IMG/VR virus record: IMGVR_UViG_3300046747_000566
Location: 1 to 64,000 of that record
Direction: 5' to 3' (one strand)
DNA: 64,000 bases
Source of the DNA: a virus
The notes below the pieces were generated by a model. The model made no database searches. It saw only the letters and a program-made list of their open reading frames with translations, and was not told where the DNA came from. Below are positions 19,008 to 60,226 of this stretch, piece after piece; the first letter of the stretch is position 1, and each line of letters begins with the position of its first letter. Made by a program: the position numbers and the translations under genes.

Positions 19008-19346
19008 CTAACTACCTGACACTATGTCTTTACCAATGAGTTGATTGATTTCGAATACCGCTGCTTCTATGGCTATGTCGATGACATCAGGAGGTGGAAC
19101 CGGAAGTCCAAATTCGCGAAACAACACCATGATCTGCTGTACCGCTTGAGCCTTCTTTTGAGCGTTGTCAAGCGTTGTGCCTTCCTGCTCTACCTTTTTT
19201 ACAACTAATAGCGCAAACTGCTGAAGAGCTAGACGTGTGTGAGCTGGCAAGCGCTGTATGAGGTAGTGAAACAGCCAAAATGCTATTCCAATCATAACAG
19301 GCCATAAGAAAAACAACACACTATTAATCCACTGAGCTTGTGACAT
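19008..19346 (-). CDS. holin, LL-H-like
   Basis: GGAGG RBS. N-terminal TM segment, then the VEQEG...AQKKAQAV...IEAAV pattern. Confidence 0.55.
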   Translation of the reverse strand: MSQAQWINSVLFFLWPVMIGIAFWLFHYLIQRLPAHTRLALQQFALLVVKKVEQEGTTLDNAQKKAQAVQQIMVLFREFGLPVPPPDVIDIAIEAAVFEINQLIGKDIVSGS

Positions 19347-19418
19347 GATAACCTCCGATATTAGGATGCAACAAGGACAACCCAAGAAACCAATGCTAAA
19401 CATTAATAGTCCATAAAC

Positions 19419-20607: not shown

Positions 20608-21846
20608 CTACTGTATCTGGGCAAGTTTCTTGATCAACTCAATATCATCTTGAATTGTCTGGCCAATTGTCTGAATTTGCTGCATATTGGCGACGACTGG
20701 CAATGCTTGCAGTGCAACGATCTCAGCTTGCAAGGCGGAGTTTTGAGCTTGCAGATCTGCTATTCTTGGATCTTGACCAATACCGCTATCGATATGCAGG
20801 AGGTAGACACTGCTCTGCTCAGATCCAGGAGGCGTATCAACCACGTGAGGACGATTGGGATCATAGCATAATACGCCTCTTTCAAAGCGTTGATATACCA
20901 CGCCTTTAATTCCCGAAACGTTTTTTTCGTTCGATAAAGGTAAGCCGAGGTAACTAAGACCACATAGCGCGTCTCCTCCGAACTTGCGATAGAAGTCAAG
21001 GATCGCATGGCCTACAAGAAAGCCATTGTCTTTACATGTCCAGATGCTGTTGTCTGCATTGCCAGTAAAATGACTGGCAACAGTGCTGTTTGCAAGATCA
21101 ATAGTGGTCATAGTTTCCTCCTCTGATTTCGGGAATGCCGCTAGGATTTGGCCTAGCAGCTCTGGATTTGCAATAGCCGTGTCGTAATGCCAAATCGAGA
21201 TGGCTGTGTGACCTTGGTCGTATGCAGCTTTGGCCAGAGCCACGGGGTCATTTAGGCCAAAGTCTTGTGTCATATCCAGCGTGGGCTGGAGACACGCTGC
21301 TCCTGCATTGGCGAACTCTGGCCAGAACGTGCCGAGGTAGTCGCTGTACTGCTGAGGCATATAGGCACTCACACACGGATTAAGCGCTTGGAGTACACCT
21401 TGCCAATTCTGCAAGCTTGGATCTGCCCACGTCGAGACAAGGAAGGTTCCCAGACCCTGCATGCGCCCGCACAAATGCTGAGCCCACGCAACCTGGCCAT
21501 TCCACTCTTGCTCTGCATCCATGCACACAATACCGTCCTCTTGCATGAACGATGTCAATATGTCTATCTCGGCATCTAGAACGTTGTATTTATTGCCATA
21601 GGAATAAATATAGGGAATGACTCCCACTCCTATTCCTTTCATAATATCTCTTCGTACCCTGTATCCATCCATGCCTCCATACCAGTGATACGCACCATCA
21701 GCAACTTTCAAGAGCAACGAACTGACATCATGCGCTTTTGCAAACTGCGCAGCTTGCGCAAACTGAGCAAACGACCAGCCCATGGTGTTTACCCCCAGAA
21801 AAAGCAGGTGTTGTCCAGTGATTTTTGCAGTGTCCGTGCAAGACAT
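20608..21846 (-). CDS. endolysin-like: TIM-barrel glycosidase-like N-domain, LGFP-like wall-binding region, C-terminal coiled coil
   Basis: Position in the lysis cassette. YSYGNKY...CMDAEQEW and LSYLGLPLSNE...VYQRFERGVLCYD. Confidence 0.5.
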   Translation of the reverse strand: MSCTDTAKITGQHLLFLGVNTMGWSFAQFAQAAQFAKAHDVSSLLLKVADGAYHWYGGMDGYRVRRDIMKGIGVGVIPYIYSYGNKYNVLDAEIDILTSFMQEDGIVCMDAEQEWNGQVAWAQHLCGRMQGLGTFLVSTWADPSLQNWQGVLQALNPCVSAYMPQQYSDYLGTFWPEFANAGAACLQPTLDMTQDFGLNDPVALAKAAYDQGHTAISIWHYDTAIANPELLGQILAAFPKSEEETMTTIDLANSTVASHFTGNADNSIWTCKDNGFLVGHAILDFYRKFGGDALCGLSYLGLPLSNEKNVSGIKGVVYQRFERGVLCYDPNRPHVVDTPPGSEQSSVYLLHIDSGIGQDPRIADLQAQNSALQAEIVALQALPVVANMQQIQTIGQTIQDDIELIKKLAQIQ

Positions 21847-21855
21847 AATCCCTCC

Positions 21856-22185
21856 TCAAGTTGGTTCTATCGCTAACAATCCAAAGTCAAATGTTTGTGG
21901 CTTCCCGCTCGTTGTGACTTTTATGTGTTGCAGAAAGTTGCCAAGATTTGCCACATCGTTGGAAGACTGCTGGTAGGTAATTTGAGCGGGGTTGCCACCA
22001 CTAGCTGCCGTTAAGTTGTTAAATACACCATCTCCTTGCCTTTCTACATCATTCGACATATTGCGCATATAATATGTAAAGTTAGCGGTGGTGAGACCTG
22101 ATATATCAAAGTCTCCTGAGTCTGGCTCAAGTTCAAATGTCCAGGGCTCGCGTGTATCGCCTTGAGGCCATGGTGATTGCGCCAT
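21856..22185 (-). CDS. hypothetical structural protein
   Basis: ORF track. Its start overlaps the stop of the repeat protein. Confidence 0.4.
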   Translation of the reverse strand: MAQSPWPQGDTREPWTFELEPDSGDFDISGLTTANFTYYMRNMSNDVERQGDGVFNNLTAASGGNPAQITYQQSSNDVANLGNFLQHIKVTTSGKPQTFDFGLLAIEPT

Positions 22186-25100
22186 TATCTGTTCCTTCCT
22201 GTAACAATGCCATCTCGTGCATTTCTTCTTGAAATGCTTACACTGCCATCTCTGCTATTCCCTGCTATCCTGCCGTCTCTACTGTTGCCTATAATTGGTC
22301 CTGATGTGGCTTCAAGGACAAATCGGCAACTAATGTCAGTTGGCCTGCCAATGGATAACAAAAACCTCAATGCCACATCTCGTGTATCCACGGCTTCGAG
22401 AATAAAGCGAGCGGCTAGGTCATTGCTGAGTGTTATGCCGTGAAGCAGGAGGCGCATTGAGAGGTCTCTGGCGCGACCTAAACGCAGCCTTGATGCGAGA
22501 TCTTGACCGATGGCAAGTTTTAGTCTTGTCGAGAGATTTAATGCTTTAGCTAGCAAAAAGCGAGTGAGAAGGTTTAAGCCTTTGGCTAGTCTGAAGCGAG
22601 ATGAGAGGTCGATATTTTTGATAACGGACAATTTAAGTCTGGAGGATATATCCAATCCTCTCGCTACTTTCAGCCTAGATGCAAGATCTTGATCTCTACC
22701 CAGCCTGAGCCTGATTGCCAAATCCTGAGCACGACCTAATAAGAAGCGAGTGAGAAGGTTTAAGCCCTTCTGGAGACGAAAACGGGATGAGAGATCTAGT
22801 GCTTTTCCAAGCTTGAGACGGGATGCAAGGTCAAGACCCTTTTGAAGACGAAAACGGGATGCAAGATCTAGTGCCCTCCCAAGCAAAAATCGAGAGGATA
22901 CATCAAATGCTTTTGTTATGCTTAATCGAAACCTTGTTGCTGTATCAAGACCCTTTGCTAATTTCAGCCTGGACATTAAATCCAGTGCTTGTCCTAGCCT
23001 CAACCGTGTTGAGAGGTTGAGTCCCTTGCCAAGCTTGAAGCGGCTGGAGAGATCAAGCGATTTGATGGCAGACAAGCGAAGCCTTGAAGCAAGATCTAAG
23101 GCTTTGCCGATCCGTAATCTAGTAGCGAGGTCCTGCCCCCTAGCTAATTTGAGCCTTGAAGCAAGATCTAAGGCTTTGCCAAGTCTGAAGCGAGAAGCAA
23201 TATCCTTGGCAGCATTGGCAAGTAATTTAAAGCGTGCCGCAACATCATTAGCAGATTGATTAATGATAATAAGCTTAAAGCGTGCTGATAAGTCTTTGTT
23301 GACTATTGCGTCTAATCGTAGCCTTGCCGCTAAATCTAGCGCTTTGCCTAATCGAAGCCTGGAGATTAAGTCGAGAGCCTTACCCAGCTTCAATCTACTT
23401 GATAGGTCTAGCGCCTTTGTTACTGACAGCTTCAGTCGAGATGAGAGATCCAAGCCTTTCGCTAATTTGAGTCTGGAGATTAAGTCCAGTGCTTTGCCTA
23501 GCTTCAATCTACTTAAGAGATCTAGCGCTTTTCCTAGCCTGAGACGAGAAACAAGGTCGAGAGACTTGATAGCAGATAAGCGTACACGAGCCGCTAGGTC
23601 ACGCGCTTTTGCTAAACGTAATCTAGAGGCAAGATCCTGGCCACGACCTAGCAGGAAGCGAGCAGCAAGGTCCAGACCTTTTTGCAATCGGAATCTAGTT
23701 GCTGTATCTACTGTCTTATTTACGGCTAATTTGAGCCTTGTAGCTAAATCAAGTCCTTTTGCCAGTCGTAAACGAGCAGAAAGATCAAGCGACTTGATAG
23801 CGGATAATTTGAGCCTCGTTGCCAGGTCCTGAGCACGCCCGAGTTTGAGCCTACTTGCCAGGTCCTGAGCACGCCCGAGTTTGAGCCTACTTGCCAGGTC
23901 CTGGCCACGGCCTAACCGTAGCCTTGAGGCGAGATCCAAAGACTTGATTGCCGATAAACGTACACGAGCAGCAAGGTCCCGTGCTTTTGCTAAGCGCAAT
24001 CTAGAGGCAAGATCCTGAGCACGGCCTAATAACAAGCGAGCAGCAAGGTCTTGCGCTTTCTGGAGACGCAATCGAGAGGCTATATCCTTCGATTTATTGG
24101 CGAGTAATTTGAAGCGAGAGGTTAAATCACGCGATATTCCCAGACGTAGCCTTGTTGTAAAGTCTTTCGCCTTGCCCAGCCTGAATCTACTGGATAGGTC
24201 CTGAGCACGACCTAGCAAGAACCGACTTGAAAGGTCAAGCGATTTAATGACAGACAACTTGAAACGTGAGGCTAAATCCTGAGCTTTTGCTAGTCTCAGT
24301 CGTGTTGCTAGGTCCTGTGCGCGTCCTAATCTGAAGCGTGCTGATAGGTCAAGTGCTTTTCCTAATCTGAAGCGGGATGGTAAATCTACTATTTTTGTTG
24401 CTGAGAGTTTGATGCGTGACGCTAGATCAAGCGCTTTTCCAAGCAAGAAGCGAGCCGATAAATCATTCTTAATTAATGCGTCACTTAATGTAAAATTGTC
24501 GAATTGTGTATTGGCTCCTGAAGCCGGAAAAGTGCGCACACCGAATTGACCGGAACTGTAGGTACTATCCGTTGCAGTCAGTGTCCATGCAGATGGCTCA
24601 CTGCTTCCATCTTGCCAGATTTTTGCAAAGAGCGATGAGCCCACCGCGCGAAATCTTATCCAATAGAAAGTGGCAGCAGAAAGAGTGAAATTCGTTCCGG
24701 TCAGTGTTGTGACCGATCCGCTATCAATACGTCCTATTTCTAGTTGTGCAGACCCACCTGGAGATATTTGTGCTTGATAGCAGTTTGTCCCTGCGCTATT
24801 CGAGCGAAGGATAATACCTGTGCCATTATCGCCTGTCGTGCTACACGCTAAGCGCACAGTGGCATCACATGTAGTAGACGTCTGAGAGCCCAACAACATG
24901 ATCTGACGAGCTGACTGTGCAGAAACGTTACCCTCGTTGGAGGCAATGGAGAGCGCGGCTGATCCCACTGGATGCGACCACGTTTCACCATCTGAGGCCG
25001 TCCCCCATGATGAGGCATTATCAGCTCTGGTGAAGGTGTCACTTGAAATTATGGTGAAAGCACTTTTTAGATTAAAACGAGCGACAAGATCAAGCGCTTT

Positions 25101-25976
25101 ACCTAATCTGAGCCTAGACGCTAAATCAATATTTTTAAGCGCTGATAATTTTAGCCTGCTTGATAGATCCTGTGCTCTCCCAAGCAAAAACCGTGCGCTC
25201 AAGTCAAGTGCTTTGCCTAATCTGAAGCGTACTGCTAAATCAAGTGCTTTTTGGAGTCTGAAACGAGATGATAAGTCTTTTGTGATTATAGCAGAGAGTT
25301 TTAAACGCGATGCCAAATCGAGAGCTTTTGCCAAGCGTAGCCGAGTGGCAAGGTCTTGAGCGCGGCCAAGCAAGAAACGAGCTGATAGGTCAATAGGCGT
25401 TTTAAAGACGGATGTGGTAACTTGTACATCATTAGCAACACCAGTCGATGCAGAGGTAGACTCAAATATAACAGGATTATCACCACCAATAGCCGTTTGG
25501 TTGTCTTTAAACCATAAATCAACATAGAGCAAATCAGAAGGACCAAATACAATAGAGGACATGCTTGTAGCTGAAAAATTATAAGTCGTCTTTGCAGTCG
25601 TAGCAGTCGCAACATTAATCGTTCCGATCTGCGTATAAGTTCCACCAGAGTATCTGAAGAAGCGAATGGTTGTGTTTGAGTTCGCCCCTTGCGCTCCTGA
25701 CAATGACATCGTGATACTAGCAGACCAGTTGCCAGTGCCGAACTCACCAGCCCCGGGTTGATAGACCCAGCCCTTGCCAGTCGGCGTCGCTGGTATAGAC
25801 ACATTGCCAGTCGTTGAGCCACCTTGCGAAAAGATCTCCCCAAAGGTATTAGAAGTTGCCCCAAAGGTTGTCGTCTTACTTGTCTCGGTTCCACCCGTCG
25901 TGTTGAGCGACATGTCAGAGGCAGTTGTCAGCGTCCCGTCTAATACAGAACTACCTCGAAGCGTCAAGCTTGCCAT
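22185..25976 (-). CDS. 1263-aa fibre-like protein: jelly-roll-like N-domain, 9 repeats, LamG/ConA-like domain, about 58 more 12-aa repeats
   Basis: Repeat unit is DLASRLRLGKAL and variants. Central domain has FYWIRFRAVGSSLFAKIWQDG...QFDNFTL. Confidence 0.7.
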   Translation of the reverse strand: MASLTLRGSSVLDGTLTTASDMSLNTTGGTETSKTTTFGATSNTFGEIFSQGGSTTGNVSIPATPTGKGWVYQPGAGEFGTGNWSASITMSLSGAQGANSNTTIRFFRYSGGTYTQIGTINVATATTAKTTYNFSATSMSSIVFGPSDLLYVDLWFKDNQTAIGGDNPVIFESTSASTGVANDVQVTTSVFKTPIDLSARFLLGRAQDLATRLRLAKALDLASRLKLSAIITKDLSSRFRLQKALDLAVRFRLGKALDLSARFLLGRAQDLSSRLKLSALKNIDLASRLRLGKALDLVARFNLKSAFTIISSDTFTRADNASSWGTASDGETWSHPVGSAALSIASNEGNVSAQSARQIMLLGSQTSTTCDATVRLACSTTGDNGTGIILRSNSAGTNCYQAQISPGGSAQLEIGRIDSGSVTTLTGTNFTLSAATFYWIRFRAVGSSLFAKIWQDGSSEPSAWTLTATDSTYSSGQFGVRTFPASGANTQFDNFTLSDALIKNDLSARFLLGKALDLASRIKLSATKIVDLPSRFRLGKALDLSARFRLGRAQDLATRLRLAKAQDLASRFKLSVIKSLDLSSRFLLGRAQDLSSRFRLGKAKDFTTRLRLGISRDLTSRFKLLANKSKDIASRLRLQKAQDLAARLLLGRAQDLASRLRLAKARDLAARVRLSAIKSLDLASRLRLGRGQDLASRLKLGRAQDLASRLKLGRAQDLATRLKLSAIKSLDLSARLRLAKGLDLATRLKLAVNKTVDTATRFRLQKGLDLAARFLLGRGQDLASRLRLAKARDLAARVRLSAIKSLDLVSRLRLGKALDLLSRLKLGKALDLISRLKLAKGLDLSSRLKLSVTKALDLSSRLKLGKALDLISRLRLGKALDLAARLRLDAIVNKDLSARFKLIIINQSANDVAARFKLLANAAKDIASRFRLGKALDLASRLKLARGQDLATRLRIGKALDLASRLRLSAIKSLDLSSRFKLGKGLNLSTRLRLGQALDLMSRLKLAKGLDTATRFRLSITKAFDVSSRFLLGRALDLASRFRLQKGLDLASRLKLGKALDLSSRFRLQKGLNLLTRFLLGRAQDLAIRLRLGRDQDLASRLKVARGLDISSRLKLSVIKNIDLSSRFRLAKGLNLLTRFLLAKALNLSTRLKLAIGQDLASRLRLGRARDLSMRLLLHGITLSNDLAARFILEAVDTRDVALRFLLSIGRPTDISCRFVLEATSGPIIGNSRDGRIAGNSRDGSVSISRRNARDGIVTGRNR
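22310..24464 (-). repeat. 36-bp in-frame tandem repeat array (block 2)
   Basis: Includes two perfectly identical adjacent units at 23821..23856 and 23857..23892. Confidence 0.85.
25055..25391 (-). repeat. 36-bp in-frame tandem repeat array (block 1)
   Basis: Nine 12- to 14-aa units. Confidence 0.8.
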
Positions 25977-26174
25977 TCATTCTCACCTCCTTTCTTGCGT
26001 AGCAGTAGACATGTGCTGCATTCTGTGCTAGACTTGCCGCTATGAAAGAGATATCTAGATTTATTTCTCGTATCCGTTGTGAACTTTCGTTCGGCCATAC
26101 TTGGCAAGTACACGTCAGCGACACTGCTATCACCCATGTCTGCAAGCACTGCGGCAAAACCACCGTGCGCAAAA

Positions 26175-26723
26175 TCACGCCAAGTTCAACCCCACAACCG
26201 AATGACTGATATTGTTAATTGGAGCTATTCCTTCGCGCCACGATCCAAAGTTGTATATTGATGTTTTGTAGGCAACGAGGCCTAGCTCCCTATCCCAGAT
26301 ATAACAATGGCAATCCCCCGTTTCTTTGTTGCCTACCGCTCCAATGATCTGGCATTCGAATGTTGACGTATTTGCACCGAAGCCGTCGAGAGTCTTGATC
26401 TTCATTTGAAAGACACACCCGCGCTCTTTGACAGGCAATACAGCACTTGAGAATTTACCTTGCTGTACTTGATGGATATCGTTGCCTTTTTCGATGCATG
26501 TGACCTGCGTTAAGTCGTTAGGAAACATGAGCCAGATCTCCTTGACCTTGAAGATGTCCCCCGTCGTGACCAAATCTAAGCTCCAATCCACTGGCTTGAT
26601 GCCGTCTCTTAGGACAAAGCCACGCTCAGAAATGGTCTTGCCAGTGGTCAACGTACATTCCCACCATGGACGCTGCGGTTTGACGGCGTTTGCTACTGTT
26701 GCCAGGCTTGTTTTGATGTTCAT
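26175..26723 (-). CDS. hypothetical structural protein
   Basis: ORF track. Confidence 0.45.
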   Translation of the reverse strand: MNIKTSLATVANAVKPQRPWWECTLTTGKTISERGFVLRDGIKPVDWSLDLVTTGDIFKVKEIWLMFPNDLTQVTCIEKGNDIHQVQQGKFSSAVLPVKERGCVFQMKIKTLDGFGANTSTFECQIIGAVGNKETGDCHCYIWDRELGLVAYKTSIYNFGSWREGIAPINNISHSVVGLNLA

Positions 26724-26873: not shown

Positions 26874-28136
26874 ATGACTGAATTGTACCATGCTGGTCAA
26901 CTGTCCCAGCAGTCCCTCTTCTCTGATGCTGATTACATCGAACTCCAGCAGTTGACTTTGATTAACCCCACTGAAGACACTGCTACTCTTCCCCAGACAT
27001 CGAGCAAAATCAAGAGATGCTCCAAATGCAAAGAGTATAAGACTCTTGATGATTTTTATCGCAACAAGAACGCAAGGTTTGATGGACATGATCATCAATG
27101 CAAGGATTGTAGAAGCAAATATCGCTATGAGCATGTTGACTTGCAAAAAGAGCGAAACAGGCAAAGATATCTTGATCCCGTACGCCGTGAAGCTCATAAT
27201 TCTCAATGCAGAGAAAAGCGTCTTCGAGAAAATCCTCCTCCACCGCCACCCAAACGAGGACATAAGGTTTGTAATGAATGCAATCTGGAAAAGTCTCTTG
27301 CTGAATTTAATAAGTCCTCTGGGATTAAAGATGGGTATGCCGGTAAATGCAAAGAATGCCATCGTGAATATTACCGAAAATATCAAGAAGCACAGATGGC
27401 TAAACCTCCACAGCCATTGTCTGAATCCAAGGTATGCAGACAATGTGGAGAAGAGAAGTCTATTGATCAGTACCATTTCAGGGATAACAAACCTCTTGCC
27501 CGTTGCAAAGAATGCATTCGTGCTTATGATAGATCGAGAGATCTTCAACATAATCCTCGTAAAAACCCTCCTAGACCACGCGCTACCAATGAGGGCTATA
27601 AAGTTTGCACTATCTGTCTCACAGAAAAACGATTTACAGAATTTAACAAGAACACACAGCAGAAAGACGGATATTCTGGCAAGTGCCGAGAATGCACGAA
27701 AGAACGCTGGAAGAACCGAACACCAGAGGAGAAAAAGGCTCAAAGACAAAGACGATATCAGCTTGAAGAAGCAAGAAGAGACGCGATAAGGGCTTACGAT
27801 CAAGTAAGACTTCATACCCCTCAACGTCAAATGTATAGGCATAATCATGCAAACAGGCGAAAGGCCATTATGAACGGTAATTATGCTGAAGAGGTTAATT
27901 ATCAGCGCATTATTGATAGAGAGGGATATCATTGCTATATATGTAATCAAGACATCCTCCCTCATCACAAACTTGCTTTTGATCATTTTATACCTCTTTT
28001 GCCTAGAAATGGAGACCCAATAGGGACTCACACAGAAGATAACCTATACCCCACGCATCGGGAATGTAATGCCAGAAAGTCAAATCGAAAATTTGAAGAT
28101 CTAACAGACTTCGATAAGCGAGGTCCTGATAACTAA
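26874..28136 (+). CDS. HNH endonuclease with four CxxC...CxxC modules
   Basis: Modules CSKCKEYKTLDDF..CKDC, CNECNLEKSLAEF..CKEC, CRQCGEEKSIDQY..CKEC and CTICLTEKRFTEF..CREC. Core FDHFIPL...HRECNARKSN. Confidence 0.8.
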   Translation: MTELYHAGQLSQQSLFSDADYIELQQLTLINPTEDTATLPQTSSKIKRCSKCKEYKTLDDFYRNKNARFDGHDHQCKDCRSKYRYEHVDLQKERNRQRYLDPVRREAHNSQCREKRLRENPPPPPPKRGHKVCNECNLEKSLAEFNKSSGIKDGYAGKCKECHREYYRKYQEAQMAKPPQPLSESKVCRQCGEEKSIDQYHFRDNKPLARCKECIRAYDRSRDLQHNPRKNPPRPRATNEGYKVCTICLTEKRFTEFNKNTQQKDGYSGKCRECTKERWKNRTPEEKKAQRQRRYQLEEARRDAIRAYDQVRLHTPQRQMYRHNHANRRKAIMNGNYAEEVNYQRIIDREGYHCYICNQDILPHHKLAFDHFIPLLPRNGDPIGTHTEDNLYPTHRECNARKSNRKFEDLTDFDKRGPDN

Positions 28137-29542: not shown

Positions 29543-31057
29543 CTATCCAATGACGATATACTCCACTGCATACGTATTGCCTGCTTGTGAAGCACTTGGA
29601 GCTGTAGCGCATCCAAAGTTAAAACCTGTTGTAGATAGGCTTGGCCCGTCCACATATGGGTTTAATGCTGCTGTTGCTTGGTTTCCCGCTGTGAGCACTA
29701 TCACTGGCGTGCTTGCATAGCTTTTAGCGAACGTTACGCTGACCTGTGCTCCTGATGAAGGTGATGTTCCACTGCCAAACAGTACTCTGCCTCGCATGTC
29801 CGTTGTGTCGCCATTGCCAGCGCTGGGAGCAGGAGGGGAACCACCATTCGCTGTGAGAGCCGCTAGAGCAGGAACACCTGAGAGTGTGCTGCTTGACACG
29901 AGATGTCTATCGAGCTGAACATCCCCCACATGCTCAACAGCAGATGGTGTGATATAGCTATCAAGAAAGATGTCATTGCCTGTATTGCGGTAGTGATTAT
30001 GCGATGCAATCAGATATGCAGGTTGACCGCCTCCGGTCTGCGTGCTATTAACCTGATAGGCGATGGCTTGGGAGAACGCGGGATCGCTTGGATTATTGGG
30101 GCTAGCATCCCATCCACCTTGAATGATGTTGCCAAGGACAAGACACCGTGTTTCAGTCAATCCGCCAAATGTGATAGAAAGGTGTCGATAGTGGTAATTA
30201 GCAGCGGGCTCGGTAGTGGCGATGTTATTTCCTGAGACGATTGTTGGATGTGGGCCAATAGCAGTGATTTCAATGCCTGATATAAAGTCATTCCCGCTAA
30301 CGTCCTGCCCATATCCATCAATCTTGTTGTCAATGACAAAAGTTGAGTAGCAATTGCTGAGCGATATGCCAGATGCTTGATTGTCGTAACAGTAATTGCG
30401 AGAGACAAAAAAGCCAGTAGAACGTTCAATTCTTATTGCGTCAAGTGTTGCATCACTAACTATGCAAGAGTCGATATAGCCGTCTATGAGCTTTCCATTG
30501 ATGTCACGCCCATATATGCCATGCCCTAAGCAGTTCGACACTTTGCATGACTCTAGCCTATTTTCTACGCAAGTATTCGATATAGCTGAGCCCGATTGGT
30601 TTACACTGGAGATCATAATACCGTTATTAACGCAGTTTTGCACCGTGCATTCTCTCATAATGGAATTGTAGTTCATAAGGACTATTCCGTGACCTGATAA
30701 ATTATTAGAGGAATTAGCATCAATTGTTATATTTGTAATTATTATGGGGTTCCCGCTTGTTGATTCATTTGTTATCCATGCTTGGGAGGCAACAACAGCA
30801 ACGAGATTAGCGCCGTCTTTCATCTTGATAGTTGAATTATTTGTGCCAAGGTAGGATCGCTTGCCAGGAAGCTGAATGACTGTCCCAACGACGTAGGTCC
30901 CAGGAGGAAAAAAGATAATAGAGTCATCCATCGAAGCATTGATGCATGTCTGGATGGCAGTAGAATCGTCCGTGAAACCGTCGCCAACCGATCCATAGTC
31001 GCGAACATTGAAATACAGTATTCCGTACCCAGGATCAACACTAGAAGGATATGGCAT
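29543..31057 (-). CDS. right-handed beta-helix (pectate-lyase-fold) tailspike/depolymerase-like protein
   Basis: N-terminus FNVRDYGSVGDGFTDDSTAIQTCINAS. Repetitive N/G-rich rungs. Confidence 0.65.
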   Translation of the reverse strand: MPYPSSVDPGYGILYFNVRDYGSVGDGFTDDSTAIQTCINASMDDSIIFFPPGTYVVGTVIQLPGKRSYLGTNNSTIKMKDGANLVAVVASQAWITNESTSGNPIIITNITIDANSSNNLSGHGIVLMNYNSIMRECTVQNCVNNGIMISSVNQSGSAISNTCVENRLESCKVSNCLGHGIYGRDINGKLIDGYIDSCIVSDATLDAIRIERSTGFFVSRNYCYDNQASGISLSNCYSTFVIDNKIDGYGQDVSGNDFISGIEITAIGPHPTIVSGNNIATTEPAANYHYRHLSITFGGLTETRCLVLGNIIQGGWDASPNNPSDPAFSQAIAYQVNSTQTGGGQPAYLIASHNHYRNTGNDIFLDSYITPSAVEHVGDVQLDRHLVSSSTLSGVPALAALTANGGSPPAPSAGNGDTTDMRGRVLFGSGTSPSSGAQVSVTFAKSYASTPVIVLTAGNQATAALNPYVDGPSLSTTGFNFGCATAPSASQAGNTYAVEYIVIG

Positions 31058-31660: not shown

Positions 31661-33109
31661 CTATAGAAACACATGATAGAAAAAGCCGTACACAGTATTG
31701 GCTTGGCTTGCGCTAGGTGCATTGACAGATGAAACAGTAAAGTTTGTCGTTGTTGTAGCCACGTAAAGGTTAAGCGATGCTGAAGCTGAGTTGATCGGCG
31801 TGATGGTGACTTTCGGGGCATTGGCATAGGCAACGTTAAAGGTAACGACGGCCATAGCGCCCGCCACTGGTGAGGTCCCCGTGCCAAATGTGATCTTGCC
31901 AGAGATATCTGTAGCAGTTGTAAGTGCTGGCGCTGGTGGTGATGTTCCAGCATTAGCGCCAGCCGCTGCCGTGGGACTCACTGGACTCACTGATCCAATG
32001 TGCCCCAATATTGTGAAATCGCCACCTACTACGTGTGCATCGCCGCCGTATGTGGTGTTTGTCGCAACATTTTTTGCATCATTATCATGAAAGTAGCATT
32101 TCCATGAAGTTGTGTTGTTGGTTTGAATAAGGTATCCAATGCTTCCGCTTTGATTACTACCATTTACAGTATTATTGGTAACTATCGCTATTGGAGATAA
32201 TGAACTAAGGCCATTCCCATTAATGCTGATCCCATAGTATGGTCCCGTAGCCGCTCCACCTTCAAAACCTATATGGTTTGCTATACATGATGATGCTCGG
32301 CCATCGTTAATATTCATGATAATACCAGAAATATTTGTAGAAGAACCAGAGCCAAATCCATCAATGTAATTGCCGATTACACGCGTTGCATAGCATTGAT
32401 CAATCTTCATTGCATCAGTGCCCGTGCCGTAAATATGGTTTCCTTGTATGAGCCACCCTCCACCAGAGTTGACACTTATTCCTCTAGCACCTGCATTAGC
32501 AATAATACAATCCTCAAGGAATCCATCAGTGCATACATTGGCACTATCAGAAATATAAATGCCGTTTCCCCCACATGATCTTGCTTGGATGCGCCTAATT
32601 TTTGCTTCTACACAAGTATTCGATATATGCATACTGTTCCGTGAATTAGCAGTATGAACAAAGCCTGCGCCAGCAACAGTTGTAATCGAGATATTATCAA
32701 AGCTGCTCCAAAAATTCATCGAAACAAAGCCATGTGCATTGCTTCCAGTAGTTGCGCTGTTTCCGTCAATTTGAATGTCGCTTATTTCTACAGGATTACC
32801 ACATGTTGTGCTGTTGTTATACCAATCCTTAGAACACAATACAGGCGTCGTGAGCGCCGTGCCTGTCTTCACTTTTATGACGGTTCCACTGTTGCTGTCG
32901 CCAGCTCCGACGATCCTGATGTTCCCAGGGAATAGAATGCTGGCAGATACGATGTATGTCCCCGAGGGAAATACCACCATTGACCCGGATGGCACTGAAT
33001 TTAGGCAGGTCTGAATGGCTGCCGTATCGTCAGTGCTCCCGTCGCCTTTCGCTCCGTAATCTTTTACGCTTGCTGTGTATATTGGTGTGTCTACAATAAA
33101 AAGCGGCAT
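31661..33109 (-). CDS. second beta-helix tailspike/depolymerase-like protein
   Basis: VKDYGAKGDGSTDDTAAIQTCLNS. C-terminal module resembles that of 29543..31057. Confidence 0.65.
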   Translation of the reverse strand: MPLFIVDTPIYTASVKDYGAKGDGSTDDTAAIQTCLNSVPSGSMVVFPSGTYIVSASILFPGNIRIVGAGDSNSGTVIKVKTGTALTTPVLCSKDWYNNSTTCGNPVEISDIQIDGNSATTGSNAHGFVSMNFWSSFDNISITTVAGAGFVHTANSRNSMHISNTCVEAKIRRIQARSCGGNGIYISDSANVCTDGFLEDCIIANAGARGISVNSGGGWLIQGNHIYGTGTDAMKIDQCYATRVIGNYIDGFGSGSSTNISGIIMNINDGRASSCIANHIGFEGGAATGPYYGISINGNGLSSLSPIAIVTNNTVNGSNQSGSIGYLIQTNNTTSWKCYFHDNDAKNVATNTTYGGDAHVVGGDFTILGHIGSVSPVSPTAAAGANAGTSPPAPALTTATDISGKITFGTGTSPVAGAMAVVTFNVAYANAPKVTITPINSASASLNLYVATTTTNFTVSSVNAPSASQANTVYGFFYHVFL

Positions 33110-33118
33110 GCTATTCTC

Positions 33119-36100
33119 CTATTTCAGTGTCGTTGCCAGTAGTTGCCACGGGCTGCCTATGTTCGCGTTCTCAGTGCAAGTAATATTTTGCCAATAAATT
33201 TGCGTAGGATTACCATTTTCAGTGCCTATACTTTGAGATGTAGATATTCCTGTAATAAGCATAGATGCATCATTTATATTGAATTCTGGTAGAAAAACAG
33301 GGAGATATTGACCGATAGCAAGCGATGGGTTGCGTCTCCATGTCTTGAAGGTGATAGTGCGTCCCTGAGTACCGTATTTCTGAAGCAGTGCGTTTCCATA
33401 GGCCGTAGCCGCCGCGACATTCAAGCTCTGGCTAGATACATCCTCTACAACCGCGACAATGCCAAGGCCTGCACTCTGCACATCGAGAGTGCCTGTGACA
33501 GAAGCTGAGAAGGTGAAAGACGGGGTTGTCCCTGTGATAGTCCAGCGAAGTCTGGCGATTGCTCCGAGCGCTTGATTGATCGTTGAAAACGCACCTATCG
33601 TGGTCGATATTGGGCTTGCAGCGCTCACTACATTGCTAGACCAGAGTTGATAATAAATGCCATTGACATCTTTACGGTCAACAAAGAATTGGATGGTTGG
33701 CGATGTGCCTGAAACAGCCGTGATATTGATATCTACTGCTATTCTTCTGCACTTGCTTACATCCAAGTCTCCAAAGTCAGATGAGGTAGTATGAGCAGCA
33801 CTCGCGCCATTCAATACATTCTGGATAGCCTGTGTGCGACCCATGCGCTGAGCAAACTGCTTTTGTGTGACAGTGCCTGCGAGATTGGTGTTATCTACAG
33901 TAATGCTTGTGATGTATTGATATGTATAGTTTTGAAAGAGCAATATATCTGTTTGCTGTAATACCGTGCCTGATGGGTCTTGATCTATCGCGTTGCTGCC
34001 AGGCGTATAGTAGAAATCTTTCCCGCTGTCGATACCTTTAATGCCAATAGTTTTGAGCTGATTATTTAGATAAACAAGAGGAGGACTGATAATCTCGCCA
34101 CCAAGTGCCCATGATGTGCTCGTGCCATCCCCGATCTTGGTCTCGCTCTTGGTGCCTGTGGCTACTACACCATCCAAGACCATCTCATTTCTATAGAGAT
34201 CTGCACTGTAATCCACGGTGAGGGGCCCGTCGAGCAAGAGTTGCTGATCAGCAGATTGCAGTATCCATGGCGCTGGTTGCGCAACCCGTGGGCCAAAGAT
34301 AAAATTCAAGTTTTGATCGATAAACCATGTGTAGTCTGATTTCTTGGCAAGATCATTGATATTATCTGAAAGGTAGGTATTGGTGTAATCTGCCGTTGGG
34401 ATGAGCGAACCAATCCCGATATTGGGATGCAATGCTGCCACCGTCAGATCGGTTAACTGTGGCGTCTGGGTTGGATCGGTGCTCGTCAGTGTGACTTTCG
34501 AATACACGACTTTATTGCTGAGATTATCGCCTTGAGGCTGGACTCTGAAGTTGTAGAAGTGCGCTGTACCTGTATCGTTGCTCATGCCGACCTGACCAGC
34601 GCTAAGCGGGCTTGGATCAGTGTAGGTTAGGATCGGCACCCCATCAAAGTACGCTGCAATCACACCGCCTGTCATGGTAACTCGAATACGGCGCTTTGTG
34701 CTTCTTGTAAACGAGATGGCACCTGCTGCTAAGAGGTTCCTAATGCCGCTCACGCGCTTAACCAGCATCATGGTATTAGGATCATTTGACGATGACGCAT
34801 CATTTACTATCAATTGATAATAATTATTGATATTAGCGTATCTCCAAACGATGCCTCCTGTGTCGCTTTGATCCATGTCAACGATGATGTCAATATTCGA
34901 TGCTGAAATTGCATTGTAGAGCAGTAAGCCTAAAGATCCACCTGAAGCGGCTAAGCGGCTATTGAGCGTGTCCCAAAACCACGGGACGGCACTGCCACCC
35001 GTAAAGAATGTCGAAGTGTAGTTTGGATTGCTATTTGTTGCGAAAGTGTCGAGGGTAGCATTGGGCTGTGAAGTGATGCCACTAATCGAACCACCATTGG
35101 TGGCACCTGAGTAGCTCACCCCATTCAGGCTTGTAGCCACAGCCACACTCGTGCCGTTCGGCGTGGTAGCTACCCAGGACGTGAGGGTTGAGCCCGCCGT
35201 ACCTGCATTGGAGAGCGAGAGAAATGGAGCGATACGGGTGCCTGATGAGCTGAAGCCACCCAGAACACGCGCCAAAAGATACCTGAGCTGCGGCATGCTG
35301 GTAGCGGTTGCGGTCGTTAGCGTCACCTTAAATCTAAGGTTGACACCTGAGAGCGACTGACCGAGTGTGAGGCCTGGAATAGCCGCGCCATTGGTGGCAG
35401 TTGCGTAGGTCGAGCCACCGTTAATACTACTCTCGACGAGCAGGGTAGTGCTCTGCGAGTTGAGTGAGTCATCTTCCCAGTAGATCACGCTATTCCCGTA
35501 GTTGGCAGCTCCTGTGAGTGAAATATTATTCGATATCCATGTGCCTGTAAGCGCCTTCATTAAGCCAAAGTTGTCAAAGAATGAAATATATCCATTAGAT
35601 GCATCGCCATTTGAGACGCGAAAACCAACATAGCCCGCCGCCGTATACGTGCCATCTGTAGCGTTTATTACTTGTACATCATCAAGGAATATCTGATGGG
35701 ACGATCCGCTAAAAATAACCTTTATGCGATGCGTTGCTTGTGACGTGAGGTTGACAGTAGCAGTGGCAACCTGTGTACGTGTTCCTGCTGAAGCTGCTGA
35801 GCTGTTTGATCCTCTCTGAAGCGCGATAGTGGTACCGAATATTTCTACGGCATAGGCATAATTCGCGTCATAGTTACTCCATCCTGTTGTGCGATAGACA
35901 CAACCGACTTTCATAGCAGTATTGTCTACATACACATCAAATTCGAATGTTCCATCTGCAATCTGACCAGCAAAATCCATGCGCGAGCGTGCTTCCGTGC
36001 TTTGGTGAACTTGCAAGCTAAATTGCTTCTTATTCACGTACTGCAAGCAAGAATTCACATTATTTGGCCCAGTTGCAGCACCTCCAAAGAGTGTTATGCT

Positions 36101-58859: not shown

Positions 58860-60226
58860 TGCGTTCACTTCACCCGGCTCTCCAGGCTCGCTTAGCGGCA
58901 TTACAGCAGTACAAGATCAAACACGCTTCTTTGGAAAAAATGGATGATCTGCTGATGAATGCCATTGATGAGCACACCAGCTACAGCATCTTGGCCCTGT
59001 ACGGTCCTAGCGGGGTCGGAAAATCCACCGTCATGAAGCGGATTGCAGAACGGCGTCGGGAGGAGGAGTCTGATCCTTCCGTGGTACCTATCGTAGTCGT
59101 CCAGGCATCGCCGGAAGATGTCGGATCAGCAGCCCGTCTGGATTTTTACCGCCAGACGCTTCACCAACTCCGTGGGCATGTTGCGGTACGGGATCGTATC
59201 TTGAATCTCCCTCTGGCTCGCGAGCGAGGGAAAAAGAGTACTGACCCGGCAGAATGGCTCGAAATGCGTGATGCAGTGTCATATGCGCTCGATCTCCTCA
59301 AAGTTTCGGCTGTCTGCGTTGACGAAGCGCAACATCTGCTACAAGCAGATGCGGCACAAAAGCCTTCCATCCAACTGGACTGGCTCAAATCGCTCACCAA
59401 CCGGAGTAATCTGCTCTATATCCTCCTGGGAAACTTCTCCCTGTACGATTTCTGCCACCTGAACGGACAAGTAGCTCGGCGTGTGCACGAAGAACAATTT
59501 GCTCGATACCACCTGGACCAGCAAGCAGATGCAGTAGAATTTACCAGCGCATTGAAAGTGCTCTTAGAGCAGGTCCCACTCCAGGTTGATATCCCAGAGA
59601 TGCTCACCCATTGGAAATGGTTCGGCGAATGGAGCATCGGCTGTATTGGTATTCTCAGCGATTGGATCGTGGAAACGGCTGCGACGCTCTGCCGTACCGG
59701 AGAGACCGTATTCACCCTTGAGGCGCTGGCAAAGCATGCCCTAAAACCAGCACAGCGCCTCAAATTGGAAACGGAAGCACGCACCGGAGAATTCAAGATT
59801 GAAGAGGCTCGACGCGAAAGCGAACGAGAGCTTCAACGTCTATTGGGCAGACCCTCGACACAACCTCGTAGTTCACCACAACATCCTCCATTGTCCAACG
59901 GTGCCACGACGAGTCCGAGGCCCTCGAAGTCTCACACATCCCCCCATATTGAACGGGCAGCTCACCGCGATCCAGTGGGTGAGCAGGTCTTCACCGGAGC
60001 GAGCACCAAATGCTCCTATCTGGGTATGATTGAAGTGACACGCAACCAATTTCAAGAAACTGGTACTACCTGTGTCGAATGTCCGACCTGCAGCGCTCGC
60101 CGGACCCTCAAATCTCCCAAAGATTGGCCTCATTTTCCATCACACCAGCTGCGCAAAAGCCCGCCGCCAAAAGGAGAACGACGTTGGATATTACAGGAGC
60201 AGATCTGGAAACTGGGCGAAGACTGA
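58859..60226 (+). CDS. tnsC: TniB/TnsC-like AAA+ ATPase with about 165-aa C-terminal extension ending in a Cys cluster
   Basis: LYGPSGVGKST (Walker A), VCVDEAQHL (Walker B). C-terminus KCS...TCVECPTCS. TGATG overlap with tnsAB. Confidence 0.75.
   Translation: MRSLHPALQARLAALQQYKIKHASLEKMDDLLMNAIDEHTSYSILALYGPSGVGKSTVMKRIAERRREEESDPSVVPIVVVQASPEDVGSAARLDFYRQTLHQLRGHVAVRDRILNLPLARERGKKSTDPAEWLEMRDAVSYALDLLKVSAVCVDEAQHLLQADAAQKPSIQLDWLKSLTNRSNLLYILLGNFSLYDFCHLNGQVARRVHEEQFARYHLDQQADAVEFTSALKVLLEQVPLQVDIPEMLTHWKWFGEWSIGCIGILSDWIVETAATLCRTGETVFTLEALAKHALKPAQRLKLETEARTGEFKIEEARRESERELQRLLGRPSTQPRSSPQHPPLSNGATTSPRPSKSHTSPHIERAAHRDPVGEQVFTGASTKCSYLGMIEVTRNQFQETGTTCVECPTCSARRTLKSPKDWPHFPSHQLRKSPPPKGERRWILQEQIWKLGED

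What the first reader, a model, noticed from the sequence alone, without database searches (positions are those of the whole stretch)
22185..25976. 1263-aa virion-module protein built from about 65 copies of a 12-residue D-L-x-x-R-[LF]-x-L-x-x-x-x repeat
- Nine repeats, then about 58 more (DLASRLRLGKAL and variants, occasionally 14 aa), flank a LamG/ConA-like jelly-roll domain.
- A second jelly-roll-like domain forms the N-terminus.
- The C-terminus has short GNSRDG repeats.
- At DNA level this is a 36-bp in-frame array. It includes two perfectly identical adjacent units (23821..23892), which implies recent expansion or contraction.
- Strict 12-residue periodicity with conserved D, R and alternating L/F, plus a frequent G at position 9, does not match any fibre repeat I know (collagen, triple beta-spiral, beta-helix rungs).
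- It could be a new solenoid or coiled fibre shaft whose length varies by repeat slippage.
Basis: partly seen in the sequence, partly recalled or inferred. Interest (0 to 1): 0.7.

Follow-up and report, generated by a model that had tools for sequence, protein, structure and literature searches.

The report
Phage tail fibre with novel repeat
This is a 1263-residue tail-fibre-type protein of an uncultivated phage (its relatives sit in Chloroflexota genome bins) whose shaft is 66 copies of a 12/14-residue repeat found in no curated protein family or solved structure, so its fold is still unknown.

Summary
ORF 22185..25976 (-) encodes 1263 aa with 9 + 57 units of D-L-x-x-R-[LF]-x-L. They follow a regular 12-12-12-14 pattern and flank a lectin-like domain. 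The two identical adjacent 36-bp units are real.

The repeat hits nothing in Pfam, NCBIfam, PHROGs or PDB sequences, and nothing in 50,697 GenBank phages. It does define a rare family: about 100 proteins among 1.84 billion representatives, with periods of 14, 15 or 12. The window's array is the longest seen.

The array is old and selected at protein level. Third codon positions are 33% identical, and the invariant Arg uses all six codons. Copy number still differs between relatives (9 versus 19 units in the first array).

The gene lies at the end of a siphovirus tail module, before the lysis genes. Its stop overlaps the start of a conserved ~110-aa partner gene. A related phage has the same N-terminal domain, C-terminal motif and partner but a different shaft repeat.

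Two AlphaFold2 monomer runs gave only low-confidence helices for the array. The sequence pattern excludes a canonical coiled coil and favours strand-plus-turn units in an oligomeric fibre. The fold is unresolved. I read it as a new variant of a known kind, the repeat-shaft tail fibre.

The parts
22185..25976 (-). Whole ORF, 1263 aa: tail-fibre-type protein with the repeat shaft
   Evidence: ORF listing. The start is confirmed by homologues that begin MASLTLRGSS / MATLVLRGSS.
25986..25990 (-). Shine-Dalgarno GGAGG, 9 nt before the ATG
   Evidence: Read directly from the sequence.
25392..25976 (-). N-terminal conserved domain (aa 1-195), fold unknown
   Evidence: 30-65% identical to about 35 metagenomic proteins, usually at their N terminus and sometimes duplicated. 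No Pfam, PDB or PHROG match.
25056..25391 (-). First repeat array, 9 units (aa 196-307)
   Evidence: Regex census. The IMG/VR relative L003 has 19 units at this place.
24465..25055 (-). Central ConA/CBM66-like lectin domain (aa 308-504)
   Evidence: phrog_24476 hit on aa 311-490. Profile versus PDB: levanase CBM66, E=0.022. The model of the homologous domain has pLDDT above 90 and Foldseek gives CBM66 at E=5e-9, TM 0.8.
22302..24464 (-). Second repeat array, 57 units (aa 505-1225), mostly a 12-12-12-14 super-repeat
   Evidence: Hydrophobicity spectrum peaks at 180 degrees (1135) against 5.9 at 100 degrees.
23821..23892 (-). Two perfectly identical adjacent 36-bp units, the only recent duplication
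   Evidence: Exact identity. TRF: 23808-23903 at 96% matches. The remaining units are 60-80% identical.
22302..22337 (-). Last unit, DISCRFVLEATS, with the family-conserved Cys (aa 1214-1225)
   Evidence: The same D-[IL]-x-C-R-F-x-L terminal unit occurs in P0008, P0012, P0020, P0043, P0045, P0046, P0052, P0054, P0074 and, as a variant (DVSCLFRL), P0058.
22188..22301 (-). C-terminal tail with short GNSRDG-type repeats (aa 1226-1263)
   Evidence: Sequence. Analogous 2-6 short peptide repeats end many family members. Low-confidence beta strands in the AF2 model.
21856..22185 (-). Translationally coupled 109-aa partner gene (TAATG overlap with the fibre stop codon)
   Evidence: Overlap read from the sequence. 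A homologous 107-123-aa ORF starts -4 to +5 nt from the stop in 6 of the 9 other family loci examined. The family has at least 210 unannotated proteins. Weak Ig-like hints: BppU_N, Rib, FlgD_ig.
26175..26723 (-). Conserved 182-aa Cys/His-rich protein, the ORF immediately upstream on the same strand (198 nt upstream)
   Evidence: 71-75% identical to the ORF that precedes the fibre gene in L003 and L027. No family match.

Best explanation
The gene encodes a tail fibre, or side fibre, of a siphovirus-like phage or prophage.

**Architecture**
- A conserved N-terminal module is followed by a short shaft of 9 units.
- Next comes a ConA/CBM66-like sugar-binding domain, then a long shaft of 57 units.
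- The protein ends in a Cys-bearing terminal unit and a short C-terminal peptide-repeat cap.

**The shaft repeat**
- The shaft is built from a previously undescribed repeat family.
- Each unit has an 8-residue core, D-phi-a-[ST]-R-phi-[RK]-phi, plus a 4-, 6- or 7-residue linker.

**Inferred mechanism**
- Each core forms an amphipathic strand-like element. Its even positions (L2, S/T4, L/F6, L8) are buried.
- The invariant D1 and R5 make polar contacts between units or between chains. The linkers are surface turns.
- The buried face is covered by oligomerisation, most likely a trimer, nucleated from the conserved C-terminal end.
- The shaft holds the lectin domain at a set distance from the tail, roughly 30-75 nm depending on the fold. 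Unit number sets the reach.
- The coupled ~110-aa Ig-like partner binds or helps assemble the distal end.

**Shown versus inferred**
- Shown: the repeat anatomy, the family, protein-level selection, the tail-module position, the lectin fold (through a homologue), the partner gene, and copy-number difference between relatives.
- Inferred: beta conformation, oligomeric state, presence in the virion, sugar binding, and the partner's role.
For: **Context**
- The gene order on the minus strand is terminase, portal, major capsid, major tail, tape measure, a 1521-aa tail protein, two pectate-lyase-like tailspikes, this gene, the 109-aa gene, then an endolysin-like gene.
- The order fibre, ~110-aa gene, lysin-like gene (its product 40% identical to the window's endolysin-like protein) recurs in the distant locus L014.

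**Link to the tail**
- In P0017 the N-terminal domain plus 4 units are fused to a homologue of the window's 1521-aa tail protein, directly downstream of genes carrying a tape-measure-type domain (PhageMin_Tail).
- The family member P0047 has a PHROG 'tail protein' N terminus, E=1e-14.

**Domains typical of receptor-binding proteins**
- Family arrays link CBM66-like, LamG_3, SGNH-hydrolase and GH16 domains.

**Protein-level selection**
- Codon position 2 is 84% identical across units and position 3 is 33%.
- R5 uses all six Arg codons.

**Strand-plus-turn reading**
- Hydrophobic power at 180 degrees is 1135, against 5.9 at 100 degrees.
- V/I/T or aromatic residues are enriched at positions 2, 4, 6, 10 and 13.
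- No Pro or Gly occurs at positions 1, 2, 5, 6 or 8, and Gly peaks in the linker.
- Linker lengths of 4, 6 and 7 are mixed within single arrays, which a continuous helix could not absorb.

**Oligomer reading**
- Some members end in short heptad-like helices (PTWEEIQIQ...) and many in 2-6 short peptide repeats after a conserved Cys unit.
- The AF2 monomer gives pLDDT 40-67 for arrays but above 90 for the globular domain in the same run.

**Shaft as a swappable spacer**
- The related phage on L028 keeps the N-terminal domain (54%), the xTRDG tail and the partner (75%). Its shaft uses a different repeat of about 18-20 aa.

**Copy number**
- The first array has 9 units here and 19 in L003.
Against: - There is no direct evidence that the protein is in virions.
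- Both AlphaFold2 runs predicted helices, not strands, for the array, although at low confidence.
- D1 and R5 at i/i+4, Asp/Asn at position 1 and Gly at position 9 also fit short capped helices.
- The 180-degree signal would also arise from a hexad-spaced pattern (phi at 2, 6, 8, 12), so it does not prove beta strands.
- The N-terminal domain is sometimes duplicated or placed at the C terminus, which is odd for a baseplate anchor.
- The oligomeric state is untested.
Confidence: 0.6

Rival explanations
1. The protein has the same fibre role, but the shaft is helical rather than beta. One form would be a trimeric alpha/beta coiled coil, with short helical turns alternating with three-residue beta-layers at hexad or nonad spacing. 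The other would be a supercoiled helix-turn-helix as in the phi29 gp8.5 head fibre.
For: - AF2 predicts helices for both the 12-mer and the 15-mer arrays.
- The core contains [aliphatic]-A-[TS]-[RK] in 27% of family units and 34% of window units. This resembles the beta-layer consensus [aliphatic]-A-T-K-[polar]-[DE] (PMC4786415).
- The 12-mer splits into two phi-small-x-x-phi-x hexads: position 8 is aliphatic and position 9 small in 89% of window 12-mers.
- 12 = 6+6 and 15 = 6+9.
- D1/R5 lie at i/i+4, and Asp/Asn at position 1 and Gly at position 9 are good helix caps.
- Alpha/beta coiled coils occur in a prophage tail fibre, PDB 2C3F (PMC4786415).
Against: - The commonest period, 14, is not a sum of hexads and nonads. 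Its F-R-L-x-V-Q stretch alternates like a strand and is rich in V, I, T, Y and W.
- Positions 5-6 of the beta-layer motif are polar/acidic, whereas here they are F and R.
- L6/F6 would fall on an exposed 'f' position.
- There is no Pfam hit to DUF3782 or DUF1640, and no PDB sequence hit to the alpha/beta coiled-coil constructs or to gp8.5.
- Helix pLDDT is only 40-67, whereas monomer predictions of true coiled coils are in my experience usually confident (own knowledge, not tested here).
Confidence: 0.2
2. The arrays are monomeric semi-flexible spacers. The chain would be beads on a string, displaying lectin and enzyme domains as Ig-domain strings do on Hoc or on bacterial adhesins, without an intertwined oligomeric shaft.
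For: - Arrays act as linkers between globular domains in many architectures: P0008 has three lectin domains separated by 4-unit arrays, and P0011, P0020 and P0028 are similar.
- The shaft type is interchangeable.
- AF2 finds no confident fold.
Against: - One face of every unit is strongly hydrophobic (three Leu/Phe per 12 residues), and D, R and L are invariant under strong purifying selection. That is not expected of a solvent-exposed flexible linker.
- A 12-residue rung is too small to bury these side chains in a monomer (inference).
- The conserved terminal Cys unit, and coiled-coil-like tails in some members, suggest a registration or oligomerisation signal.
Confidence: 0.12
3. The protein is not a virion component. 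It would be a phage-encoded secreted or cell-surface protein, for example a lysis-associated or lysogenic-conversion adhesin, that happens to sit between the tail and lysis genes.
For: The gene is the last large gene before the lysis cassette. Virion data are lacking.
Against: - It is on the same strand as the tail genes, at the end of their block, and is translationally coupled to the next gene.
- In P0017 the N-terminal domain and repeats are fused to the large tail-tip protein.
- I noticed no N-terminal signal-peptide-like or hydrophobic stretch when reading the translation; no predictor was run.
- Family members carry tail-protein PHROG domains.
Confidence: 0.05

Closest known systems
Triple beta-spiral shaft of adenovirus fibre, reovirus sigma1 and PRD1 P5
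   Same: - A tandem short pseudo-repeat (about 15 residues) builds a viral attachment-fibre shaft.
- Hydrophobic positions alternate, a Gly/Pro turn is present and loops vary in length.
- Folding needs a C-terminal registration domain (PMC8869412).
- Shaft length is set by repeat number.
   Different: - There is no sequence relationship: no Pfam hit, Adeno_shaft included, and no PDB hit.
- The signature here is D-x-x-x-R-phi-x-phi with invariant Asp and Arg and one strand-like core per unit, not two strands around a G/P turn.
- Periods are 12, 14 and 15, mixed within one array.
- Trimer state is untested.
Triple beta-helix of phage fibres and spikes (T4 gp5C and gp12, endosialidase stalk)
   Same: - One short amphipathic strand plus a corner per unit.
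- Hydrophobic residues point inward from alternate positions.
- A three-unit super-repeat (12-12-14 or 12-12-15) is enriched in homologues, 36 observed against 16 expected. That would equal one turn of a chain around a three-sided prism.
   Different: - The window itself uses a four-unit super-repeat.
- No sequence similarity to solved examples.
- Like-charged Asp and Arg ladders would stack in register.
- Structure is untested.
Alpha/beta coiled coils with beta-layers (Hartmann et al. 2016, eLife, PMC4786415)
   Same: - Trimeric fibres made of very short repeats (hexads and nonads).
- The motif [aliphatic]-A-T-K-[polar]-[DE] resembles I-A-T-R in the family consensus.
- One occurs in a prophage tail fibre (2C3F).
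- The 12-mer here has a hexad sub-period.
   Different: - Only 20-27% of units carry the A-T/S-R motif.
- Positions 5-6 differ (F and R instead of polar and acidic).
- The dominant 14-residue period does not fit hexad or nonad arithmetic.
- No Pfam or PDB sequence hit.
Orsay virus delta beta-bracelet fibre (PMC7565637)
   Same: Strands (phi-x-phi-x-phi) alternate with short polar loops that contain Asp, Asn or Glu. An internal globular domain interrupts the shaft.
   Different: That repeat has 8 residues (5+3), forms a pentamer and comes from a eukaryotic RNA virus. Here the unit is 12-15 residues with an invariant Arg, and there is no sequence similarity.
[quoted passage not shown]
   Same: A phage fibre built from short repeated helix-turn elements. 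The unit length is similar as far as I recall, which I could not check. AF2 predicts short helices here.
   Different: No sequence hit to PDB entries. The 14-mer flavour looks like a strand. This gene sits in the tail module, not beside the capsid gene.
CBM66 / ConA-like lectin domains in phage tail proteins (for example Mycobacteriophage Douge central fibre gp20)
   Same: The central domain family superposes on CBM66 (TM 0.8) and on the lectin-like domain of Douge gp20. Streptomyces phage minor tail proteins share it at 25-30% identity.
   Different: This applies only to aa 308-504, not to the repeat. Ligand specificity is unknown.

Membership tests
Phage tail fibre / receptor-binding protein (functional class) | Encoded in the tail morphogenesis module, after the tape measure and distal tail proteins | tested here: met
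   PHROG annotation of neighbours and Pfam hits on the tailspikes. Synteny in L001, L027 and L028.
Phage tail fibre / receptor-binding protein (functional class) | Conserved proximal module with variable distal or shaft modules among relatives | tested here: met
   The N-terminal domain is shared by about 35 proteins with unrelated C-terminal parts. The L028 orthologue has a different shaft.
Phage tail fibre / receptor-binding protein (functional class) | Physically present on the virion as a homo-oligomeric fibre | not testable with these tools
   This needs virion mass spectrometry or cryo-EM. No multimer prediction was available.
Phage tail fibre / receptor-binding protein (functional class) | Small accessory or assembly gene immediately downstream | tested here: met
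   109-aa ORF with a TAATG overlap. A homologous ORF sits immediately downstream in the window and in 6 of the 9 other family loci examined. Its function is unknown.
Triple beta-spiral (Pfam Adeno_shaft and relatives) | Sequence match to the family model or to solved shafts | tested here: not met
   hmmscan against Pfam at E<=1 returned 0 families. PDB phmmer and profile searches found no fibre hit.
Triple beta-spiral (Pfam Adeno_shaft and relatives) | Trimeric intertwined fold with two strands per repeat of about 15 residues | not testable with these tools
   Only monomer AF2 was available, and it was uninformative.
Canonical alpha-helical coiled coil | Hydrophobic periodicity near 3.5-3.67 residues (about 100 degrees) | tested here: not met
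   Power at 100 degrees is 5.9 against 1135 at 180 degrees for aa 505-1225. The 14-mer arrays behave the same way. Periods of 12, 14 and 15 are mixed within arrays.
Collagen-like phage fibre repeat | G-X-Y triplets | tested here: not met
   The sequence shows no G-X-Y periodicity. There is no Pfam Collagen hit.
Alpha/beta coiled coil (beta-layer family; DUF3782, DUF1640) | Motif [aliphatic]-A-T-K-[polar]-[DE] at hexad or nonad spacing | tested here: inconclusive
   [ILVM]-A-[TS]-[RK] occurs in 27% of family units and 34% of window units, but positions 5-6 are F and R. The 12-mer has a hexad sub-pattern. The 14-mer does not fit. There is no Pfam hit.
ConA-like lectin/glucanase fold, CBM66-like (central domain only) | Beta-sandwich fold superposable on CBM66 or legume lectins | tested here: met
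   Tested on the homologue P0072, whose domain hits the window-domain profile at E=9e-45. Its pLDDT is above 90. Foldseek gives 4B1M/4AZZ at E=5e-9, TM 0.8. The window-domain profile hits 4AZZ at E=0.022.
ConA-like lectin/glucanase fold, CBM66-like (central domain only) | Carbohydrate binding | not testable with these tools
   This needs a glycan array or a binding assay.
Beta-solenoid (monomeric) | A confident monomeric stacked-rung model | tested here: not met
   AF2 monomers gave no solenoid. By inference, a 12-residue rung cannot bury three Leu/Phe.

The most novel reading that the evidence does not exclude
The D-x-x-x-R-phi-x-phi repeat defines a new fibrous protein fold. It could be a new triple-stranded beta architecture. 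It could instead be the first natural fibre made of continuously hexad-spaced beta-layers, which Hartmann et al. (2016) predicted but had not found. In either case an 8-residue core would stack regardless of linker length (4, 6 or 7), so phages could tune fibre reach in steps of about 0.5-1.5 nm and insert globular domains at will.
Probability: 0.3. Interest if true: 0.75.

Novelty: new variant of a known kind. Interest (0 to 1): 0.55.

Why it matters
- **A likely new fibrous motif.** Fibrous viral folds are few: coiled coil, collagen, triple beta-spiral, triple beta-helix, beta-bracelet and alpha/beta coiled coil. Each new one has served as a model for protein folding and as a building block for nanomaterials.
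- **Unusually regular sequence.** The repeat has an invariant Asp and Arg and three aliphatic positions per 12 residues. One chain carries 66 copies. It tolerates linkers of different length and inserted lectin or enzyme domains.
- **Tractable design rule.** Those properties suggest a robust modular shaft.
- **Unannotated partner modules.** The work flags two companions that no database names: the ~190-aa N-terminal domain and the family of more than 210 partner proteins of about 110 aa.
- **A poorly known phage group.** It gives a handle on host-recognition proteins of soil phages linked to Chloroflexota, for which very few characterised phages exist to my knowledge.

Tried and rejected
- **AF2 monomer, window aa 925-1263, 18-row alignment.** Mean pLDDT was 44.7 and the model was all helix. 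Uninformative.
- **AF2 monomer, homologue P0072, 26-row alignment.** The lectin domain was excellent. The array again gave helices at pLDDT 40-67. No multimer option and no further jobs were available.
- **Pfam hits on arrays of homologues.** BRX_N, TRPM_tetra, HTH_28 and SAP had 0 stretches passing on their own. They are sums of tiny repeated matches and were rejected as spurious. The same applies to small unknown-function PHROGs and to the SARS-CoV-2 spike HR1 hits (E about 0.3).
- **Parity test for a beta-hairpin meander.** There is no even-number preference in the spacing of long units. Relatives favour 3 and the window favours 4, so the test gives no support either way.
- **Near-DNA search of phages and exact-protein look-up.** Nothing relevant.
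- **tblastn of three family members against 50,697 phage records.** Only the lectin domains hit.
- **Genome-collection pattern scan.** Seven stretches matched, and only one, in a Dehalococcoidales genome bin, is a true member. The pattern required GATATH at the first unit, so this is a lower bound.
- **Metagenome scans.** They found no full-length close relative. Seventeen loci carry the N-terminal domain and none carries the repeat.
- **Both IMG/VR relatives end inside the gene.** The main array's copy number could therefore not be compared.
- **Profile-profile comparison of the N-terminal and central domains.** Unrelated.
- **Paper PMC3064346 on phi29 gp8.5.** It was not held, so the repeat length of that fibre is quoted from memory only.

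Full report
**Observation**

The ORF 22185..25976 on the minus strand is real. It encodes 1263 aa and starts at an ATG, with GGAGG 9 nt upstream. A motif census finds 9 units at aa 196-307 and 57 units at aa 505-1225. Of the 66 units, 47 are 12-mers, 17 are 14-mers, one is a 15-mer and one a 16-mer.

The 12-mer consensus is D-L-[AS]-[STA]-R-[LF]-[RK]-L-[GA]-[KR]-[AG]-[LQ]. The 14-mer consensus is D-L-A-[SA]-R-[LF]-K-L-S-A-[IT]-K-[SN]-[LI]. The 14-mers are not occasional. They close a recurrent four-unit, 50-residue super-repeat of 12-12-12-14.

Positions 23821-23856 and 23857-23892 are identical (TRF). The C terminus carries two GNSRDG copies plus RNARDG.

**The array is old and selected as protein**

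- Most units are only 60-80% identical at DNA level.
- Across the 66 eight-residue cores, nucleotide identity averages 55%.
- Second codon positions are 84% identical and third positions 33%.
- The invariant Arg is written with all six Arg codons, and Leu-8 with all six Leu codons.
- Only one pair of units is a recent duplicate.

Copy number nevertheless differs between relatives. An IMG/VR contig (L003) encodes a protein whose best-matching segment is 78% identical. Its first array has 19 units where the window has 9. The flanking units are clearly orthologous.

**No assignment to a described family**

| Search | Result |
|---|---|
| Pfam at E<=1 | nothing |
| NCBIfam | nothing |
| PHROGs | only the central domain |
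| PDB sequences, single protein | only chance hits (E about 0.3) |
| PDB sequences, repeat profile | only chance hits (E about 0.3 and above) |
| tblastn, window protein and two family members, 50,697 GenBank phages | only lectin domains |

Apparent Pfam or PHROG hits on homologues' arrays have no stretch that passes on its own and are artefacts.

**A real but rare family**

- A word-indexed search with the array alone returned 50 proteins.
- An exhaustive phmmer scan of 1.84 billion representatives returned 175 at E<=1e-3 and 50 at E<=1e-10.
- Ninety-nine of the proteins collected up to that point carry at least 6 units.
- The dominant period is 14 in 66 proteins, 15 in 19 and 12 in 14.
- The next-longest array has 39 units, so the window's 66 is the largest seen.

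Over 805 14-mers the consensus is D-[IVA]-A-T-R-F-[RK]-L-x-[VA]-[QR]-[AGSN]-[YF]-[RK]. The 15-mer is D-I-A-T-R-F-R-L-[MR]-S-A-[ND]-Q-L-K. The family therefore shares an 8-residue core and differs in a linker of 4, 6 or 7 residues. The linker lengths are mixed within single arrays.

In ten of the members inspected the last unit carries a conserved Cys (D-[IL]-x-C-R-F-x-L). After it come 2-6 short peptide repeats, or a short heptad-like helix, or a larger domain.

The family is very scarce in cellular genomes. One true hit, a Dehalococcoidales bin, appeared in 185,579 species genomes with a restricted pattern. About a dozen IMG/VR contigs carry it.

**Flanking domains**

The central domain (aa 308-504) belongs to a module that recurs in 37 of the collected proteins. 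In many simple members it is the N-terminal domain, followed by an array and a short tail.
- A profile of it weakly hits levanase CBM66, E=0.022.
- An AlphaFold2 model of P0072, a simple member, gives this domain pLDDT above 90 as an all-beta sandwich.
- Foldseek places the model on CBM66 (E=5e-9, TM 0.8), on legume lectins and ERGIC-53, and on the lectin-like domain of the Mycobacteriophage Douge central fibre.

The N-terminal domain (aa 1-195) is a separate conserved module.
- It occurs in 35 proteins, sometimes duplicated or placed at the C terminus.
- Seventeen soil-metagenome loci carry it without any repeat.
- It has no Pfam, PDB or PHROG match and no profile similarity to the central domain.
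- Its fold was not tested.

**Genomic context**

The gene ends a siphovirus-type structural block on the minus strand. The order is terminase, portal, major capsid, major tail, tape measure, a 1521-aa tail protein, two pectate-lyase-like tailspikes, a conserved 182-aa protein, this gene, a 109-aa gene, then an endolysin-like gene.

The stop codon overlaps the start of the 109-aa gene as TAATG.
- In 8 of 10 family loci, counting the window, an ORF of 107-125 aa starts within -4 to +12 nt of the family gene's stop. All of these except the one in L002 are homologous to one another.
- This partner family has at least 210 members of 104-123 aa, none annotated.
- It shows only weak Ig-like hints.

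In the prophage protein P0017 the N-terminal domain and four units are fused to a homologue of the 1521-aa tail protein. That gene lies directly downstream of genes carrying a tape-measure-type domain (PhageMin_Tail).

A Ktedonobacteraceae genome-bin contig (L028) carries a related phage. Its tail protein is 49% identical, its endolysin 62% and its partner 75%. The fibre gene in the same position keeps the N-terminal domain (54%) and the xTRDG C-terminal repeats. Its shaft uses a different repeat of about 18-20 residues and has no lectin domain. The shaft thus behaves as an exchangeable spacer between conserved ends.

**Structure of the repeat**

Two AlphaFold2 monomer runs gave only low-confidence helices for the arrays.
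- Window aa 925-1263: mean pLDDT 44.7.
- P0072: array pLDDT 40-67.

The sequence statistics argue against a canonical coiled coil.
- The hydrophobicity power spectrum of aa 505-1225 has 1135 at 180 degrees and 5.9 at 100 degrees. The 14-mer arrays behave the same way.
- Mixed 12/14/15 periods would dephase any continuous helix.
- Beta-branched or aromatic residues dominate positions 2, 4, 6, 10 and 13.
- Pro and Gly never occur at positions 1, 2, 5, 6 or 8.
- Gly peaks in the linker.

I therefore favour an amphipathic strand-like core plus a surface turn. The hydrophobic face would be buried by oligomerisation.

This remains an inference. The 180-degree signal would also arise from a hexad pattern, with phi at positions 2, 6, 8 and 12. 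The core also partly resembles the beta-layer motif [aliphatic]-A-T-K of alpha/beta coiled coils, in 27% of family units. Against that reading, the dominant 14-mer does not fit hexad or nonad arithmetic.

Homologues favour a three-unit super-repeat of 12-12-long (36 observed, 16 expected). That would suit a three-sided triple beta-helix. The window uses four units, so this is only a hint.

Length estimates use rises quoted for known beta fibres in PMC7565637. They give about 30-40 nm for a beta-helix-like rise and about 70-75 nm for a spiral-like rise.

**Verdict**

The repeat is unassigned to any described family and forms the shaft of a probable tail fibre whose unit number differs between relatives. 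The array is ancient, not a product of ongoing slippage, and its fold is unresolved.

It is best filed as a new variant of a known kind, the repeat-shaft phage fibre. There is perhaps a one-in-three chance that it represents a new fibrous fold.

Noticed in passing
window 56160-60226 (+): A Tn7-like transposon core lies in a block of GC 0.55 (the rest of the window is about 0.46), between the terminase region and a tyrosine integrase gene (60980-61996, -). An 899-aa ORF combines a TnsA-like endonuclease N terminus, an rve integrase core and a Mu-transposase C domain. A 455-aa TniB/AAA_22 ATPase follows it.
   Followed up: no
window 26874-28136 (+): A 420-aa ORF with an HNH endonuclease domain lies on the opposite strand, inside the tail-fibre gene block. 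The fetched parts of the relatives L003 and L027 show no comparable opposite-strand ORF upstream of the conserved 182-aa gene. L001 has a GIY-YIG endonuclease in its tail block. This looks like a homing-endonuclease insertion.
   Followed up: partly
window 21856-22185 (-): A 109-aa ORF is translationally coupled to the fibre gene. It belongs to an unannotated family of at least 210 proteins of 104-123 aa. The family has no Pfam, NCBIfam or PHROG model and only weak Ig-like similarity (BppU_N, Rib, FlgD_ig).
   Followed up: partly
window 26175-26723 (-): A 182-aa protein is the ORF immediately upstream of the fibre gene on the same strand. It is 71-75% identical in two relatives and has invariant Cys/His positions (C103, C124, C138, H139, C140), which may bind metal. 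It matches no family.
   Followed up: partly
L028 7744-9999 (Ktedonobacteraceae bin contig DATATD010000173.1): The fibre gene of a related phage has the same N-terminal domain and xTRDG tail. Its shaft consists of roughly 25-30 units (not counted exactly) of a different 18-20-residue repeat, L-x-G-x6-E/D-..., which I also do not recognise; no family search was run on it. This contig is the only clue to the host, which would be Chloroflexota.
   Followed up: partly
window 25392-25976 (-) and loci L029-L045: The ~190-aa N-terminal domain is a widespread unannotated module. It occurs stand-alone (208-325 aa proteins), duplicated in tandem, or at both ends of larger proteins in soil metagenomes.
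   Followed up: partly
window 33119-37684 (-): A 1521-aa tail protein after the tape measure is 49% identical to 1750-aa proteins in two relatives. It contains a weak LamG-like region (3keto-disac_hyd) at aa 574-696. Parts of it are homologous to the C-terminal two thirds of P0017.
   Followed up: partly
window 29543-31057 and 31661-33109 (-): Two paralogous tailspike-like proteins with pectate-lyase/right-handed beta-helix domains lie upstream of the fibre gene. The phage probably carries depolymerases as well as the lectin fibre.
   Followed up: no
window 20608-21846 (-): A 412-aa endolysin-like protein has only weak hits: the PHROG endolysin family and an LGFP repeat at aa ~300-336. It is 62% identical to the equivalent protein in L028. 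A holin-like 131-aa ORF at 19008-19403 is 30% identical to a Phage_holin_6_1 protein in L028.
   Followed up: no
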